From: a virus
Lineage: Duplodnaviria; Heunggongvirae; Uroviricota; Caudoviricetes
IMG/VR virus record: IMGVR_UViG_3300029079_000001
Direction: 5' to 3' (one strand)
Length of the DNA stretch: 48,034 nt
The translations under genes were made by a program, and so were the position numbers. Of this stretch, positions 12,551 to 19,014 are shown piece by piece; the stretch's first letter is position 1; the number at the start of each line of letters is the position of its first letter. The notes under the pieces are model-generated. The model saw nothing but the letters and a program-made list of their open reading frames with translations. It was not told where the DNA came from and did no database searches.

Positions 12551-12711
12551 GGTATGCACTCCGTTTAATTGGTCGTGCTACCACCAGAGTTCCTACGCTC
12601 TATATGGCGGTAGCCCAGACGGGGGTAGGAATACCGGTAAACGAAGAAACCGGCCAGCTAAAAGCTGCCCCATCTGAGCCACCATAAATTTGGTGTACGC
12701 AGATTTTACAC

Positions 12712-12736
12712 ACAAAAAAACACGCTGGCGCGTGTT
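12712..12736 (-). terminator. Intrinsic terminator inside the leader of the antirepressor-like operon
   Basis: On the minus strand AACACGC-GCCA-GCGTGTT followed by TTTTTTT. Confidence 0.7.
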
Positions 12737-12739
12737 GTG

Positions 12740-12900
12740 CGCTTCATTTACTCGGGTTCCTACGCCCGGCTACGGGATTTACCGTAGCAGAGTAAACTTT
12801 ACCGTCAAAACGACGCGCACGTCAATAATTTGCAAAGACATTTTACCCCGTGACCAGTCACGGGGACAGGTGTTTTTATAATTTGCTTGAACGAGTGATC
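12740..12900 (-). ncRNA. Candidate leader/small regulatory RNA region (N15 CA / P4 CI RNA-like control of the antirepressor operon)
   Basis: No ORF; 9-bp-stem hairpin CCCCGTGAC/GTCACGGGG at 12846..12865; lies upstream of the terminator; the 10-mer GTTCCTACGC occurs twice (12589, 12756) with a partially complementary GGTAGGAAT at 12624. Confidence 0.35.
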
Positions 12901-13970: not shown

Positions 13971-14162
13971 TTACTCCCCGTTCACCGAAAATTCACGATA
14001 GAAACGTTTCCACATACGATAAGTCTGCGCAAATTGTTCACCACGAAACATCGCCTTCCTGGCCTTCATGTTTTCCTTGTGAGACTTTCGGTCTATGAAC
14101 CAAAACCATTGATGGAACACACAAAGCAAGAGACACAAAGATAATATCCAATCATTACCCAT
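13971..14162 (-). CDS. Small membrane protein (63 aa), translationally coupled to the repA stop
   Basis: ATG at 14162 overlaps the repA stop; TM segment WILSLCLLLCVFHQWFWFI; the ORF track gives a longer 13971..14279 frame. Confidence 0.5.
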   Translation of the reverse strand: MGNDWILSLCLLLCVFHQWFWFIDRKSHKENMKARKAMFRGEQFAQTYRMWKRFYREFSVNGE

Positions 14163-17100
14163 AGAAAGCGCCCTGCTCTTCGTAGCTGCATGAGCTATTC
14201 CCCGTAATGTATTCACGTAACCGCCGCAGCTCATTGCTGGAAAGGTGATCCATGAACTCTGTGAGGTACAGGGATGCAAACGTCATAGCTATGCTGGCTG
14301 ATGACCATGATGACATAGTGGCCAACTCCTCACTGGAAAGCGCACTCATCGCCCAGGACTCAGGTACAGCCACTGGCAACACGGCCAAAGCCTCAGAAAT
14401 TACTGAATGAGGGGCGTTTTGAACCTGCTCGTTTGTGGATCGCGTTTTATCATCCATATATATATTGAGATCCAAATCGCGATCCATTTCGATGGCTGTC
14501 TTCTCGGCTTTACGCGTTTTTAGGGTTAGGCCATCTTTCTGACGCTGAACAAGAATATCCAGCATAAATGCCGCTGATTCAGGCTCAACAAAACGCAAGG
14601 TTGGACGCTTATCGCCGTCTCTGCCGCGACGTTTACCTGTTTTAAGGCCAAGAGAGTCGCAAATGTTTTTAAACAACGCTTCCGGCACTTTAGGCTTCCC
14701 TTTTGGCGTCATAAAACCACCAATGTGCAGAACGTTATTCAACAGGTCACGGCGTTCGGCTGTCATGAGGTTATCTCGAGCGAATTTGAGACGCTCCTGA
14801 GTCGCCTCGCCGGTCATAGTCTCAGGGTTGATACCGCAGTCGATAAAGTACTGCCGGAGAGTTGCTGATTTAAGCGCATAGAAACCGCGCGCCCCGACTT
14901 CAACAGTAGGAGTAGCTTTTACCTTGTGATCGATTATTCCAGGGAATTTAGTTTTAAAGACATCATCAGCCTGCTCGCGAGTCATCGCGGTCACTACAAA
15001 ATATTGCCACTGTCCCGCCTGACGGTATGCGTAGGTAAAATTGATGGCTGCTTCTTCCCGGTCGTAACGACGAGCTGTTACCTCATCTAAAAGCATTGTT
15101 TCATAGCGGCGAACTTTGTCTCGAGCACCATCGAAATAGAATTTCAGCGTGCCTTCTTCAACCGGTAGTTTCAGTTCGTTTTCAATATCCCAGCGGACAA
15201 GTTTTGCCTGTTCTTCAAGCGTCAGCGCGCGTTTTTTTAGCAGTTCTTCACGCTCTGATTCTTGTGGAGTTTCTGTATTGAGGTGCAGATCCAGTGTCTG
15301 TTCCCACACAATATCCCGCGCTTCTTTACGCAGATCTTTACCGATATCATTCGCAGCATAATCGGTGGCCAGCGGTGATACCTTATAACCGTCGCTGTGC
15401 ATGATGCAGATCATGTTGCTGGCGTAGTCGTTACGCGCAGTCGCTTCAATTGCGGCTGCTTTAATTTTCATCCTGGTAAAGTCGGTATTGGCCACCCCCA
15501 TTGATATACGGTCGCCATCGAAAACGACATCCGTCAGTTCACCGTTCATACCTGCGGTAGCAAGCAATGCCTGGGCGAATGCTCGTTCTATTTTTTGCGG
15601 GTCAGTTTCTCGTTTTGCACGAGCTTTATCAAAGCCGATAATAAATTCTTTTGCTGTACGGTCGCGGCGTAGCATTTGCACTGCGTCGCTGGGTACAACT
15701 TCACCACAGAACATGCCGAAATGACGGTCAAAATGTTTTTGCTCAATCGACACGCCGGATGAAATAGACGGGCTATAAATCAGGCCGTCGTATTTTTTGA
15801 CCATCTTTTTCGGTTGATTGGTAAATGCTTCAACTTCTGGCTCTGGTTTGTTTTTCTGGTTTACACACAGAAATTTCTTACCAGGAAAATGCATTCTCAG
15901 GGTGGCTGTCACATCTTCTGCAAAGGTGGAGCTGTCGGTGGCCAACATGATTTTTTCGCCATCCGATACAGCTTTCACCACCTCGGTCATGATGCGATCT
16001 TTTTCTGTATAAAAAACCCGGATTGGCTCACCTGTTTCGCGGTTGCGAACATCAACAGGTAATTCAATTACGTGGATCTGCAGCCATGCCGGTAAACCTA
16101 GTTCTTCACGGCGTTTCATAGCCAGTTCAGCCAGGTCAACCAGTAGATCGTTCGCATCAGCATCCACCATGATTGGGTGTTGTTCCGTTCTGGCCAGCGC
16201 GTCAATTAGCGTATTGAATACAGCAACCGGGTTTTCCATAGCCCGACCGGAAAGAACGGCACGTAGCCCTTGCGTGGCCTCGTCAAAGCCAAAATAGTCG
16301 TGCTGGCGCATCAACGGTTGCCAGCAGTTTTTAACAATCGAGTTTATGCAGATGGTCAGTTTACTGGCGTATGGAGCAATTTCCTGATAGCCAGGGTCCT
16401 GATAGTGCAGGATATCGGCTTTTACACCTTTTCCTTCTGTCATCATTTCCCACAGGCCACCAATAAGGGAGACACGGTGAGCAACAGAGATACCACGTTC
16501 TGAGCTATGCATTAACGGTCGTAACAATCCAGTAGATTTGCCGGAACCCATACCAGCACGGACGATGACTATCCCCTGTAGTGATTGCACGTACTTCAGG
16601 ACATCATCGGTCATTACCGAAGTTTCAAAACGCTTATAGGTGATATGTTGAGGGCGTTTATTGGGATCAGTTATGCGTTCGCTGAAAGAGCGCGGAGCCT
16701 GGGCAATACGGCACTTTTTATTCAGGCGACGGGCAATGTGGTCTTTTACCGTAGCACGATAGATATTTTCCAGTCCCATTTCACGCAGAACGATGCAGAA
16801 CATGTTAAATAAATCTGACGGACTGTTAGGAACCGGGCAGGTTAGCATGCCAATATCCACCGCTCTCAGCAGCTCTTTGGCAAAAGTACGACGGTTATCC
16901 CGCTTAATTGTCTTCAGGCGGTTGAGCGTCAGAGATAGCAAATCAGTACCGGTTTTCAGGCGGTTTGCTGTTGCAAATAGTTGACGTGCTGTTTCACGAA
17001 GTCCACGTAGTTTGTGCAGGTCGTTGAAGTCACTGCACTCCATTTGCGGATCGTCTTCAAAAGTTGGATAGACGCAGCGGACATCGTTGAATTTCGATAA

Positions 17101-18150
17101 GATTTCATAGCCAGTCCGCAGGCCGGTATTCCCTTTTCCTTCTGTGGCAGATTTCCGGTCATTATCCAGTGCGCAGGTGATTTTTGCCGCCGGGTACATG
17201 TTTACCAGTTGTTCCACAACATGAACCATGTTGTTAGCGGATACAGCGACAACCACAGCGTCAAAGCGTTTATCTTTTTTCGTGGCAAGCCAGATGGATG
17301 CACCAGTAGCAAAACCTTCTGTAACAGCGATGTTTTGCGCCCCTTTCAGCTCACCGATAACAAAGCAGGCACCGACGAAATCGCCGCTGGTTACTGCGCT
17401 GGTCTGGTATTTCCCACCTTGTTTGTCGATTCGCTGCCAACCCACAATACGACCATCATAACGACCGTCCAGGTGAGCCAGAGGGATAGCCATATATGTG
17501 GTTGGCCCCCGGCTCCATTTCGCACTGTCGTGACTGGTCACGCGACGCACATCACATGAACTAAAAACGTCACGAATACCTTTTTTAATCGCATATGGCC
17601 ATGAGCCGTCTTCAGCCTGAGCATGTTCCCACGCGCTGTGGAATGCCAGCCATCCCAGCAAACGTTCATGGTCCATTTGGTTGTTTTTCAGGTCATTAAT
17701 TCGTTTTTGTTCTTCACGGCGACGACGTGCTTCGGCCTGACGTTCTATTCTTTCCCGTTCTTCTTCCGGTTGTGCGACCACGGTCGCATTATTCCGTTGT
17801 TGCTCACGGCGATATTCAGAAAACAGGAAGGAGAAACCGCTCCATGAGCCAGCATCGCTGCCTTTATGGACGAAGTTAATGAACGGGTAATCAATCCCTT
17901 TGCTGTGTTCCAGCCTGGAGTAAATTTCTACGCGTCCTTTCAGGCTCTTTTCGAGAGCTTCTGGAGATGTTTTATTGTATGAAGAGTAACGCTCAACCCC
18001 CCCGCGAGGGTTGAGTTGGATGTTGTCGGAACAGGCAGACCAGTTGATACCAGCCATCTGTGCCAGCTCGGTTAGTTCATCCCGTGCTGCTTCAATTAGC
18101 GAGAACGGATCGCTGCCAAAGCGATCCGCATAGAAATCGTTTAATGTCAT
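14155..18150 (-). CDS. repA: Replication protein RepA (multidomain primase-helicase, N15 RepA-like)
   Basis: 1331 aa; Walker A GMGSGKST in the helicase part; position and size match N15 repA; sopC-like palindrome #1 lies inside it at 17771..17788. Confidence 0.85.
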   Translation of the reverse strand: MTLNDFYADRFGSDPFSLIEAARDELTELAQMAGINWSACSDNIQLNPRGGVERYSSYNKTSPEALEKSLKGRVEIYSRLEHSKGIDYPFINFVHKGSDAGSWSGFSFLFSEYRREQQRNNATVVAQPEEERERIERQAEARRRREEQKRINDLKNNQMDHERLLGWLAFHSAWEHAQAEDGSWPYAIKKGIRDVFSSCDVRRVTSHDSAKWSRGPTTYMAIPLAHLDGRYDGRIVGWQRIDKQGGKYQTSAVTSGDFVGACFVIGELKGAQNIAVTEGFATGASIWLATKKDKRFDAVVVAVSANNMVHVVEQLVNMYPAAKITCALDNDRKSATEGKGNTGLRTGYEILSKFNDVRCVYPTFEDDPQMECSDFNDLHKLRGLRETARQLFATANRLKTGTDLLSLTLNRLKTIKRDNRRTFAKELLRAVDIGMLTCPVPNSPSDLFNMFCIVLREMGLENIYRATVKDHIARRLNKKCRIAQAPRSFSERITDPNKRPQHITYKRFETSVMTDDVLKYVQSLQGIVIVRAGMGSGKSTGLLRPLMHSSERGISVAHRVSLIGGLWEMMTEGKGVKADILHYQDPGYQEIAPYASKLTICINSIVKNCWQPLMRQHDYFGFDEATQGLRAVLSGRAMENPVAVFNTLIDALARTEQHPIMVDADANDLLVDLAELAMKRREELGLPAWLQIHVIELPVDVRNRETGEPIRVFYTEKDRIMTEVVKAVSDGEKIMLATDSSTFAEDVTATLRMHFPGKKFLCVNQKNKPEPEVEAFTNQPKKMVKKYDGLIYSPSISSGVSIEQKHFDRHFGMFCGEVVPSDAVQMLRRDRTAKEFIIGFDKARAKRETDPQKIERAFAQALLATAGMNGELTDVVFDGDRISMGVANTDFTRMKIKAAAIEATARNDYASNMICIMHSDGYKVSPLATDYAANDIGKDLRKEARDIVWEQTLDLHLNTETPQESEREELLKKRALTLEEQAKLVRWDIENELKLPVEEGTLKFYFDGARDKVRRYETMLLDEVTARRYDREEAAINFTYAYRQAGQWQYFVVTAMTREQADDVFKTKFPGIIDHKVKATPTVEVGARGFYALKSATLRQYFIDCGINPETMTGEATQERLKFARDNLMTAERRDLLNNVLHIGGFMTPKGKPKVPEALFKNICDSLGLKTGKRRGRDGDKRPTLRFVEPESAAFMLDILVQRQKDGLTLKTRKAEKTAIEMDRDLDLNIYMDDKTRSTNEQVQNAPHSVISEALAVLPVAVPESWAMSALSSEELATMSSWSSASIAMTFASLYLTEFMDHLSSNELRRLREYITGNSSCSYEEQGAFYG
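17771..17788. repeat. sopC-like centromere palindrome #1 (inside repA)
   Basis: TGTGCGACCACGGTCGCA. Confidence 0.6.
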
Positions 18151-18204
18151 TTTTTAGCCATTCCATGCGAATTATGTTTTTTCGGGTTGAAAAAATCCGC
18201 AGGA

Positions 18205-18260
18205 GCAGCCACAATAAACGCATCTTGAATTGACGGAATCCGTCGCGTTACTGTGGCTGC
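18205..18260. promoter_or_regulatory. Large imperfect inverted repeat in the repA leader
   Basis: GCAGCCACAATAAACGC ... GCGTTACTGTGGCTGC with a 23-bp spacer. Confidence 0.4.
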
Positions 18261-18272
18261 TTCCTGAAAAGG

Positions 18273-18302
18273 ACCCGAGTTTGCCGACTCGGGTTTTTTT
18301 TC
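18273..18302. terminator. Hairpin plus T-run between cB and repA
   Basis: ACCCGAGT-TTGCCG-ACTCGGGT followed by TTTTTTTT on the plus strand; U-containing flank on the minus strand. Confidence 0.55.
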
Positions 18303-18395
18303 GTCTTTTTTCTGCTGCTGTAACCTGAGTCAACCCACAGAACATATGCCCTGCATTAAACCAGATTTACAGCAAACAATAAACCCCGTATTAAG

Positions 18396-18992
18396 TCATC
18401 TACCCTCAACCATGAATGATTTGATCGTTCCGACTATTTGGTGAACAAATTCAAGATCGCTTTTCCTGAAGATGGCGCGTTGTGAGTTTGTTCCATCCAG
18501 ATAGTAATTTTCATCATCAAAACGGGCCAGGCGCTGGATAGTGATATTTCCTGCAGTATCACGAACCAGAACATCCTCGCCGGGGACCAGTTCCAGCGCA
18601 GAATCGACCAGGAGAAAATCGCCTGGCTGATAGTTTCCCTGCGTAAGATTGCTGATAGTTAACGCATACACAGTATTGCGCTGGCTGATGAATGGCAGGA
18701 ATCGCTCAGTATTTGGAACCTGTCCCGGCTTCCACTCTTCATCCGGCCCACTTTCAGTTGTGCCAATAACAGGAATGCGATCAGGGTCATATTCTGTCCC
18801 ATATAGCACCCAATGCACTGGCTTGCGTAAGCACTTAGCCAGGGCAATACCTATCTCCAGTGACGGCATTACGTCGCCACGTTCTAAGTTTTGGACGCCT
18901 GCTATAGAGATATCGACAGCCTCAGCAACTTCTCGCAACGTCAGCTTCATCTCTAAACGGCGTGCTTTCAGTCGTTCGCCTCGTGTTTTCAT
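18396..18992 (-). CDS. cB: Prophage repressor CB (CI-like: N-terminal HTH plus C-terminal S24 LexA-like domain)
   Basis: 198 aa; HTH LTLREVAEAVDISIAGVQNLERG; divergent from cro across an operator-containing intergenic region. Confidence 0.8.
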   Translation of the reverse strand: MKTRGERLKARRLEMKLTLREVAEAVDISIAGVQNLERGDVMPSLEIGIALAKCLRKPVHWVLYGTEYDPDRIPVIGTTESGPDEEWKPGQVPNTERFLPFISQRNTVYALTISNLTQGNYQPGDFLLVDSALELVPGEDVLVRDTAGNITIQRLARFDDENYYLDGTNSQRAIFRKSDLEFVHQIVGTIKSFMVEGR

Positions 18993-19014
18993 ACTGTAAT
19001 CATAAATGATCTTC

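What the first reader, a model, noticed from the sequence alone, without database searches (positions are those of the whole stretch)
18150..18396. Structured leader between cB and repA: long inverted repeat plus hairpin and T-run
The 245-bp region upstream of repA carries a 16-bp imperfect inverted repeat with a 23-bp spacer (18205..18260) and a GC hairpin with a T-run (18273..18302). This could act as an attenuator or antisense-RNA terminator coupling repA expression to immunity-region transcription.
Basis: seen in the sequence. Interest (0 to 1): 0.4.

Follow-up and report, generated by a model that had tools for sequence, protein, structure and literature searches.

The report
Antisense-RNA control region upstream of repA

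Summary
The inverted repeat is longer than reported: it forms a 68-nt hairpin, 18199-18266, on the repA strand (-37.7 kcal/mol, z -7.25). The GC hairpin (18273-18294) is followed by eight T (18294-18301) on the + strand only.

The window is an N15-like telomere phage-plasmid. GenBank U45242 annotates the matching N15 spacer as: two CB operators over the putative repA promoter PL, a two-way terminator, and "Pinc", promoter of a putative antisense RNA.

In 23 relatives gathered without reference to these elements:
- The terminator and the repA-side arm, which carries the Pinc hexamers TTGAAA-17-CACAAT, are almost invariant.
- The other arm and the loop (18222-18261) change about as fast as third codon positions.
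- The hairpin is kept in all 30 variants found.

The variable stretch is the body of the predicted ~80-nt + strand RNA (18222-18301). That RNA folds into the same shape in all 30 variants: 5' tail, stem-loop, terminator. The distant PY54 clade has the same layout.

Most likely this RNA pairs with the repA leader and limits replication. That step is inferred, and how it would inhibit is unresolved. No Rfam family matches. Interest is low to moderate.

The parts
18367..18382 (.). OL2-like CB operator candidate, TTACAGCAAACAATAA (TA-N10-TA)
   Evidence: Motif scan. It aligns with N15 OL2 in U45242. CB binding to OL1/OL2 has been shown for N15 and phiKO2 (PMC4997575). Binding was not tested for this phage.
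18344..18359 (.). OL1-like CB operator candidate, ATATGCCCTGCATTAA (TA-N10-TA)
   Evidence: It aligns with N15 OL1.
18355..18383 (-). Putative repA promoter PL: -35 TTTATT (18383-18378), 17-nt spacer, -10 TTTAAT (18360-18355). The leader would start near 18348.
   Evidence: Both hexamers are identical to those annotated as putative PL in N15 U45242 and are conserved in the alignment. The match to consensus is too weak for the scan to report it.
18267..18301 (.). Two-way intrinsic terminator: stem 18273-18280 / 18287-18294, A-run before it, T8 (18294-18301) after it on the + strand. The repA-strand tail UCCUUUUC is weak.
   Evidence: + strand only; I2. Its sequence is invariant in 23 independently gathered relatives; for the block 18262-18312 around it, pi is 0.072 and 72% of columns are invariant. 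N15 annotates it as a terminator for both strands and phiKO2 as 'putative bidirectional'.
18199..18266 (-). Long imperfect hairpin in the repA leader RNA (about 25 pairs)
   Evidence: -37.7 kcal/mol, z -7.25. It is kept in all 30 sequence variants (-27 to -40 kcal/mol, against -16 to -20 when the variable part is shuffled).
18199..18221 (.). Invariant arm on the repA side, containing the -10 of Pinc
   Evidence: pi 0.011 and 87% invariant columns in the set not selected by anchors. It is 10/13 identical to the corresponding PY54 arm. The window holds no other copy within 3 mismatches.
18222..18261 (.). Variable block: the loop plus the cB-side arm of the hairpin. It equals the body of the putative antisense RNA and is its target in the leader.
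   Evidence: pi 0.33-0.36, about the same as third codon positions (0.35-0.375), with indels. 30 distinct versions were found.
18187..18215 (+). Pinc, a promoter-like site for the antisense RNA: -35 TTGAAA (18187-18192), 17-nt spacer, -10 CACAAT (18210-18215)
   Evidence: It is identical to the N15 feature 'Pinc; promoter of putative antisense RNA'. It is invariant in 22 of 23 relatives, and the one change lies in the spacer.
18222..18301 (+). Putative countertranscript of about 80 nt: 10-12 nt 5' tail, stem-loop I, terminator stem-loop II. The 5' end is inferred from the -10.
   Evidence: Folds: z -3.84; the same shape appears in 30 of 30 variants. A covariance model finds it at 18224-18301 (+). 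Stem-loop I is 91.9% paired on the + strand against 59.3% for the mirror helix on the repA strand.
18148..18164 (-). repA start codon (18150-18148) and weak Shine-Dalgarno GGAAUGG (18164-18158)
   Evidence: The N15 ribosome-binding-site annotation aligns here. It lies 58 nt downstream of the end of the antisense overlap.

Best explanation
The cB-repA spacer is the repA control region of an N15-type linear phage-plasmid.

On the repA strand, a weak promoter (PL) overlapped by two CB-repressor operators starts a leader of about 198 nt. About 50 nt in, the leader passes a GC hairpin that is only a poor terminator in this direction. It then forms a 68-nt hairpin.

On the opposite strand, a promoter (Pinc) has its -10 inside the repA-side arm of that hairpin. 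It would make an RNA of about 80 nt that ends at the same GC hairpin, which in this direction has a U8 tail. This countertranscript is fully complementary to the leader's terminator hairpin, the cB-side arm and the loop. Its 3' half of stem-loop I resembles the leader's own repA-side arm, so the two compete for the same partner.

I propose that the countertranscript pairs with the nascent leader and lowers RepA synthesis, setting copy number. Because its body differs between relatives, it would also set which related plasmids interfere with one another.

Shown here: the elements, their conservation pattern, and the conserved predicted shapes.
Inferred: that Pinc fires, that the RNA pairs with the leader in vivo, and that pairing inhibits.
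Unresolved: the inhibitory step. Candidates are RNase III cleavage of the duplex, collision of converging polymerases, or refolding of the leader.
For: (1) Homology. The window is 99.5% identical to Escherichia phage YDC107_1 and 76% to N15 over 801 nt. N15 record U45242 annotates, in the same order, OL1/OL2, PL, a terminator on both strands and Pinc.

(2) Conservation in 23 relatives gathered by RepA protein or BLAST (mean pi):
- invariant arm 0.011
- Pinc -35 to ribosome-binding site 0.068
- terminator block 0.072
- variable block 0.357
- PL/OL 0.224
. For comparison, second codon positions are 0.07-0.085 and third codon positions 0.35-0.375.

(3) The predicted start of the antisense RNA falls at the border between the invariant and variable DNA.

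(4) The long hairpin is kept in all 30 variants despite near-neutral divergence of one arm.

(5) The ~80-nt RNA has the same two-hairpin shape in 30 of 30 variants. Stem-loop I:
- 7 of 13 pairs changed on both sides.
- Covariation score 0.240, against 0.146 in shuffles (0/500) and 0.05-0.08 when the partners are slid.
- 34.6% G-U pairs, so the helix works on the + strand (91.9% paired) and not on the repA strand (59.3%).

(6) Independent clade. In eight PY54-like loci (RepA 47% identical to the window's), the repressor-repA spacer has:
- a hairpin with a T-run on the antisense strand only;
- a long hairpin with compensatory arm changes;
- TTGCGC/TTGCAC-18-TACAAT/TAAAAT with the -10 in the repA-side arm;
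- a 70-73-nt predicted RNA (109 nt in one locus) of the same shape.

(7) In phiKO2, CB binds only the operator half of this spacer and Cro binds none of it (PMC4997575). So the hairpin half is not a CB or Cro site.
Against: - There are no expression data. I found no paper in the held library that shows the RNA. The N15 features are labelled 'putative'.
- The promoter scan finds no more sites in this region than chance would give (2 found, 2.5 expected). CACAAT is only 4/6 of the consensus.
- Stem-loop I is barely more stable than composition-matched shuffles (mean z -1.36, and near 0 in several variants).
- The covariation counts come from an alignment fitted to the model and reflect few independent events.
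- The antisense RNA does not overlap the repA ribosome-binding site. Masking its target does not change predicted ribosome-binding-site accessibility. No conserved induced terminator was found. So no mechanism of inhibition is demonstrated.
- The invariance of 18151-18221 could serve the leader RNA or a protein site rather than a promoter.
Confidence: 0.6

Rival explanations
1. There is no functional antisense RNA. The GC hairpin simply insulates repA from cB and PL read-through and stops stray antisense transcription. The long hairpin is a feature of the repA mRNA itself, such as a stabiliser, an RNase III processing site or a pause site.
For: - Both arms of the long hairpin lie together only on a repA-strand transcript; its fold is strong and kept in all variants.
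- The support for the promoter and for stem-loop I is modest.
- N15 also annotates the hairpin as 'putative terminator of repA leader transcript'.
Against: - The strong U-run is on the wrong strand for a repA-direction terminator. In this window the repA-direction tail has only 4 U, and in the PY54 clade there is none.
- It does not explain why one arm is invariant (pi 0.011) while its partner drifts at the neutral rate.
- It does not explain why -35/-10-like hexamers at proper spacing sit in that arm in two clades.
Confidence: 0.2
2. It is a classical attenuator or a leader-peptide-coupled control. Alternative leader structures, or translation of a short upstream reading frame that ends at the repA start codon, would decide whether repA is transcribed or translated.
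For: - A short frame starting at a GUG in the invariant arm ends in AUGA, overlapping the repA start, in the window and many relatives.
- In this window ACUCAGGU (18331-18324) could pair with the 5' half of the terminator stem.
- R1 and ColIb-P9 use leader peptides (established knowledge).
Against: - The reading frame and peptide are not conserved. An indel shifts the frame between groups, and in phiKO2-type leaders the frame stops 5 nt before the AUG.
- No Shine-Dalgarno sequence precedes the GUG.
- The antiterminator-like match is absent from N15 and phiKO2.
- A 21-25 codon open frame in 70 nt is not unusual.
Confidence: 0.08
3. The inverted repeat is a DNA-level binding site for a dimeric protein, for example RepA autoregulation or a host factor, rather than an RNA structure.
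For: - It is a long palindrome-like element next to a promoter.
- The strand test on the long hairpin is indecisive: the repA strand is more stable in 17 of 30 variants.
Against: - The two arms are very unequally conserved, and the variable arm carries indels and bulges. That is unlike half-sites of a dimer.
- There is no second copy of the arm anywhere in the window.
- CB and Cro do not bind this half of the spacer in phiKO2.
- There is no DnaA-box match by inspection.
Confidence: 0.07

Closest known systems
N15 immB-repA spacer as annotated in GenBank U45242 (OL1/OL2, PL, two-way terminator, Pinc 'promoter of putative antisense RNA')
   Same: - Same genes on both sides, and the same order and strands of all elements.
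- The Pinc hexamers and spacing, the terminator hairpin and the repA-side arm are identical base for base.
- Operators with the TA-N10-TA layout sit at the aligned positions.
   Different: - The body of the predicted antisense RNA and its target differ. The window RNA reaches only about half of its cognate duplex energy on the N15 target.
- The operator sequences differ.
- The repA-direction U-run is shorter here (4 against 5).
- In N15 itself the antisense RNA is only 'putative' as far as I could verify.
Plasmid countertranscript control of replication (R1 CopA/CopT, ColIb-P9 Inc RNA, pT181 RNA I, pLS1 RNA II)
   Same: - A short RNA is made from the rep leader in the opposite direction.
- It has a 5' stem-loop plus a terminator stem-loop.
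- It is fully complementary to its target.
- The RNA body varies between relatives while the flanks stay fixed.
(Comparison with these systems is from established knowledge; the features here are.)
   Different: - The overlap stops 58 nt before the repA ribosome-binding site.
- No conserved leader peptide, pseudoknot or induced terminator was found.
- The -10 of the antisense promoter lies inside one arm of the target hairpin, so the antisense RNA mimics that arm.
- A protein repressor (CB) also controls the sense promoter.
Lambda OOP RNA
   Same: It is a short (77-nt) antisense RNA with its own promoter and intrinsic terminator, in the immunity/replication region of a lambdoid phage (own knowledge).
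   Different: OOP overlaps the 3' end of cII, not the leader of the replication gene. There is no sequence or Rfam match here.
C4 / P4 CI-type processed antisense RNAs (Rfam RF01695), the other antisense control of N15-like phages
   Same: It is a small phage-plasmid regulatory RNA. A copy is present in this same window at 12603-12689 (-).
   Different: It is a different locus (antirepressor control) and a different family. The repA-leader element does not match RF01695 or any other Rfam model.

Membership tests
N15-type repA control region (GenBank U45242 annotation) | Lies between the prophage repressor gene cB and repA, both on the same strand | tested here: met
   cB is 18396-18992 (-) and repA is 14155-18150 (-). 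Homologous records show the same layout.
N15-type repA control region (GenBank U45242 annotation) | Pinc hexamers TTGAAA-17-CACAAT on the strand opposite repA | tested here: met
   18187-18215 (+). Identical to N15 positions 56-61 and 79-84 and invariant in relatives.
N15-type repA control region (GenBank U45242 annotation) | GC hairpin flanked by an A-run and a T-run, annotated as a terminator on both strands | tested here: met
   The stem-loop sequence is identical to N15. The scan calls it on the + strand. The repA-strand tail is weaker here, with 4 U.
N15-type repA control region (GenBank U45242 annotation) | Two 16-bp CB operators (TA-N10-TA) overlapping PL | tested here: met
   Sites at 18344-18359 and 18367-18382 lie at the aligned positions. 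Protein binding cannot be tested here.
N15-type repA control region (GenBank U45242 annotation) | The antisense RNA is actually made | not testable with these tools
   It needs RNA data. No report was found in the held literature.
Plasmid countertranscript (antisense RNA) copy-number control | Small RNA (about 50-150 nt) with its own promoter inside the rep leader, opposite strand, ended by an intrinsic terminator | tested here: met
   Predicted only: 18222-18301 (+), about 80 nt. An analogous arrangement occurs in the PY54 clade.
Plasmid countertranscript (antisense RNA) copy-number control | Conserved stem-loop that presents a recognition loop | tested here: inconclusive
   For: the same shape in 30 of 30 variants, 91.9% paired, and covariation above the controls. 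Against: stability only z -1.36 versus shuffles, and the alignment was fitted to the model.
Plasmid countertranscript (antisense RNA) copy-number control | A defined inhibitory step (ribosome-binding-site block, leader-peptide or pseudoknot block, or induced terminator) | tested here: inconclusive
   There is no overlap with the ribosome-binding site. Masking the target leaves ribosome-binding-site accessibility unchanged. No conserved leader peptide was found. No conserved induced terminator was seen.
Plasmid countertranscript (antisense RNA) copy-number control | Acts in trans to lower copy number and cause incompatibility | not testable with these tools
   The only support is indirect: about 10 groups of RNA/target pairs by predicted duplex energy.
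Intrinsic (Rho-independent) terminator, two-way | GC-rich stem-loop followed at once by a U-run, on each strand | tested here: inconclusive
   + strand: 8 U, called by the scan. repA strand: UCCUUUUC, below the scan's threshold in this window; relatives have 5-6 U.
Transcription attenuator with alternative antiterminator | A conserved alternative pairing that competes with the terminator stem | tested here: not met
   The only candidate (18331-18324) is not conserved in N15 or phiKO2-type leaders.
Any Rfam family | Score at or above the family's gathering threshold | tested here: not met
   The best hit in the region is NsiR1 at 26.4 bits against a threshold of 39. The whole-window gathering scan finds only C4 and isrK, both elsewhere.

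The most novel reading that the evidence does not exclude
The ~80-nt countertranscript is a family-wide, uncatalogued RNA of enterobacterial telomere phage-plasmids (the N15, phiKO2 and PY54 clades). Its variable body would define ten or more mutually non-interfering replication-control groups. It would act by imitating the invariant arm of the leader hairpin: by capturing the other arm during transcription, it would switch the repA leader into a non-productive form.
Probability: 0.3. Interest if true: 0.55.

Novelty: new member of a known kind. Interest (0 to 1): 0.3.

Why it matters
N15-like linear phage-plasmids are common in E. coli and Klebsiella. The plasmid collection holds 214 records with this spacer, 176 of them from Klebsiella.

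If the countertranscript works as proposed, it sets their copy number. Through its variable body, it would also decide which of them can share a cell.

The comparative data give a ready-made seed for an RNA family that Rfam lacks. They also give a clear set of mutants to test. Beyond that, the finding mainly confirms a 1996 annotation.

Tried and rejected
- **Diversifying selection on the variable block: rejected.** Its diversity (0.33-0.36) equals that of third codon positions (0.35-0.375). Within the near-identical E. coli group, only 4 of 43 polymorphic sites fall in it (p 0.07).
- **Strand assignment of the long hairpin from G-U pairs: indecisive.** The repA strand is more stable in 17 of 30 variants.
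- **Ribosome-binding-site masking by the freed invariant arm: rejected.** The 10-nt match to repA codons 2-4 (18138-18147 with 18211-18220) is not conserved in N15, and constrained folding shows no change.
- **A 12-pair helix around the Shine-Dalgarno sequence reaching into the coding region: set aside.** It is weakened by a synonymous change in N15.
- **Leader peptide: rejected.** The 57-codon frame 18345-18172 and the short frame from GUG are not conserved in frame.
- **Antiterminator: rejected.** It is not conserved.
- **RNAalifold on a plain MAFFT alignment:** it missed stem-loop I because of misalignment. I therefore used a covariance model, which biases the alignment towards the structure.
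- **Weak Rfam E-value hits** (NsiR1, mir-95 and others): all are far below threshold.
- **Literature:** Lobocka 1996, the Ravin reviews, Casjens 2004 and Ziegelin 2005 are not held. Full-text searches found no experimental report of the antisense RNA.
- **Genome-collection scan with RepA:** it returned only one locus.
- **VP882:** it shows a similar hairpin layout, but I could not place an antisense promoter.
Full report
**What is in the sequence.** The spacer lies between repA (14155-18150, minus strand) and cB (18396-18992, minus strand).
- The repeat tool finds arms 18204-18217 and 18248-18261 (14 nt, 93% complementary) and a second pair at 18267-18280 / 18287-18300.
- Read by eye, the first repeat runs 18204-18221 / 18244-18261 with one bulge. 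It gains five base pairs at its foot, giving a 68-nt hairpin at 18199-18266.
- As repA-strand RNA this hairpin folds at -37.7 kcal/mol, against -16.5 +/- 2.9 for shuffles (z -7.25).
- The GC hairpin (stem 18273-18280 / 18287-18294) is followed by T8 on the + strand. Only that strand is called a terminator by the scan. On the repA strand the tail is UCCUUUUC.

**What the window is.** An 801-nt stretch around the spacer is 99.5% identical to Escherichia phage YDC107_1 and about 76% identical to N15, phiKO2 and relatives. 214 plasmid records hold the spacer.

The N15 record U45242 annotates the matching spacer in detail:
- CB operators OL1 and OL2 overlapping the putative repA promoter PL;
- a 'putative terminator of repA leader transcript';
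- on the other strand, a 'putative terminator of RNA antisense to repA transcript';
- 'Pinc; promoter of putative antisense RNA'.

phiKO2 annotates the hairpin as a putative bidirectional terminator. The promoter scan on the window independently reports TTGAAA-17-CACAAT at 18187-18215 (+). These are the Pinc hexamers of N15.

Published work shows that CB binds OL1/OL2 in N15 and phiKO2 and lowers copy number. In phiKO2, CB binds only the operator half of the spacer and Cro binds none of it (PMC4997575). The window has TA-N10-TA sites at the aligned positions, 18344-18359 and 18367-18382.

**Conservation pattern.** I aligned 23 distinct spacers gathered by RepA protein similarity or BLAST, that is, not selected for the elements themselves.

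| Block | Mean pi |
|---|---|
| repA-side arm 18199-18221 | 0.011 |
| 18151-18198 (Pinc -35 to ribosome-binding site) | 0.068 |
| terminator block 18262-18312 | 0.072 |
| loop plus cB-side arm 18222-18261 | 0.357 |
| PL/OL 18313-18395 | 0.224 |

In a larger set, third codon positions of cB and repA have pi 0.35-0.375 and second positions 0.07-0.085. So the variable block drifts at about the neutral rate, not faster. The flanks are at least as constrained as second codon positions, and the repA-side arm far more so. The expected start of a Pinc transcript, about 7 nt after the -10 and near 18222, falls exactly on the border between invariant and variable DNA.

**Structures across variants.** Pattern scans of viral and metagenome contigs raised the number of distinct variable blocks to 30.
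- The long hairpin is kept in all 30: -27 to -40 kcal/mol, against -16 to -20 when the variable part is shuffled. Which strand it favours is not decided by the energies (17 of 30 for the repA strand).
- The predicted + strand RNA (79-85 nt) folds in all 30 variants into the same shape: a 10-12 nt 5' tail, stem-loop I with a U-rich loop, and the terminator stem-loop.
- A covariance model built from seven phiKO2-type sequences finds all 30, including the window at 18224-18301 (+).
- On the model-fitted alignment, stem-loop I has 13 pairs. None is invariant and 7 changed on both sides. 91.9% of cells are paired. The covariation score is 0.240, against 0.146 in shuffles (0/500) and 0.05-0.08 for slid partners.
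- A third of the pairs are G-U, so the same helix on the repA strand would be only 59.3% paired.

Cautions:
- The alignment is fitted to the structure.
- Several 'double changes' are one register shift shared by a whole group.
- The + strand here is G+U-rich, and against dinucleotide shuffles stem-loop I is only modestly stable (mean z -1.36).

**An independent clade.** PY54 RepA is 47% identical to the window's. The cI-repA spacer of PY54 and seven relatives (RepA 61-100% identical to PY54) shows the same plan:
- a GC hairpin whose T-run is on the antisense strand only;
- then a long hairpin (-23 to -36 kcal/mol) with compensatory changes in both arms, and one in the terminator stem;
- TTGCGC or TTGCAC, 18 nt, then TACAAT or TAAAAT on the antisense strand, with the -10 inside the repA-side arm;
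- a predicted RNA of 70-73 nt (109 nt in one locus) with a 5' tail, stem-loop and terminator.

The promoter-bearing arm is 10/13 identical between the two clades. VP882 has a similar hairpin layout, but I could not place an antisense promoter there.

**How it most likely works.**
- PL, repressed by CB, starts a leader of about 198 nt. The GC hairpin may stop part of the PL and cB read-through.
- Pinc makes a countertranscript that ends at the same hairpin. It is complementary to the leader's terminator hairpin, the cB-side arm and the loop.
- Because the leader's two arms are complementary, the antisense RNA resembles the invariant arm and competes with it for the variable arm.
- I infer negative control of RepA and hence of copy number.
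- Predicted duplex energies sort the 30 variants into about ten groups. The window RNA reaches 32-54% of its cognate energy on N15- or phiKO2-type targets. Specificity between relatives is therefore plausible.

The inhibitory step is open. The overlap ends 58 nt before the ribosome-binding site. Masking the target does not change predicted ribosome-binding-site accessibility. I found no conserved leader peptide and no conserved antiterminator or induced terminator. The remaining candidates are RNase III cleavage of the duplex, polymerase collision between PL and Pinc, and refolding of the leader.

**Comparison and novelty.** This is an ortholog of the N15 region annotated in 1996 and works on the plan of plasmid countertranscript systems. 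No Rfam model matches it. I found no experimental report of the RNA in the held literature, and the key N15 papers are not held.

What is added here is comparative:
- the sharp invariant/variable border at the predicted start site;
- the conserved RNA shape over 30 variants;
- the same plan in the PY54 clade.

I rate it a new member of a known kind, with low to moderate interest.

Noticed in passing
window 12603-12689 (-) and 12715-12788 (-): Rfam gathering-level matches to C4 antisense RNA (RF01695, 73.6 bits) and isrK (RF01394, 62.5 bits), side by side. This is probably the antirepressor control RNA region known from N15, P1 and P4.
   Followed up: no
window 17992-18015 (-): A terminator-like hairpin, CTCAACCCTCGCGGGGGGGTTGAG, lies inside repA on the coding strand, about 135 nt after the start codon. 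Its T tail is weak.
   Followed up: no
window 18106-18128: A perfect 9-bp inverted repeat with a 5-nt spacer, CGGATCGCT-ttggc-AGCGATCCG, lies within repA codons 8-15. It is kept with one mismatch in N15-type sequences.
   Followed up: partly
window 18213-18147 (-): A short open frame (21 codons, GUG start inside the invariant arm) ends in UGA overlapping the repA AUG (AUGA). Many relatives have a frame ending at the same place, but an indel changes the frame upstream, and phiKO2-type leaders stop 5 nt earlier. No Shine-Dalgarno sequence precedes the GUG.
   Followed up: partly
window 18649-18999 (+): A 116-codon open frame runs antisense inside cB. The N15 record U45242 annotates a comparable 'unknown' gene with its own ribosome-binding site overlapping cB on the opposite strand.
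   Followed up: no
L044 (3638-3735 and 12045-12142); contig pairs L011/L014, L035/L066, L038/L069, L057/L061, L068/L076: Several IMG/VR contigs carry two copies of the repA control region on one contig. Some plasmid records of 72-107 kb also carry two places. These may be dimers, head-to-head assemblies of hairpin-ended linear plasmids, or co-assembled relatives.
   Followed up: no
L116 (Vibrio phage VP882) 1286-1470: Between the repressor gene and repA there is a hairpin with A and T runs (1286-1321) followed by a large, roughly 80-nt structured domain. The leader folds with z -4.35. The layout resembles the N15 and PY54 plan, but no antisense promoter was placed.
   Followed up: partly
window 18187-18198 with 18306-18312 (-): In the minimum-energy fold of the leader, the A-run before the terminator pairs with the U-run after the long hairpin. 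This closes both hairpins into one three-way junction. Both runs are nearly invariant.
   Followed up: no
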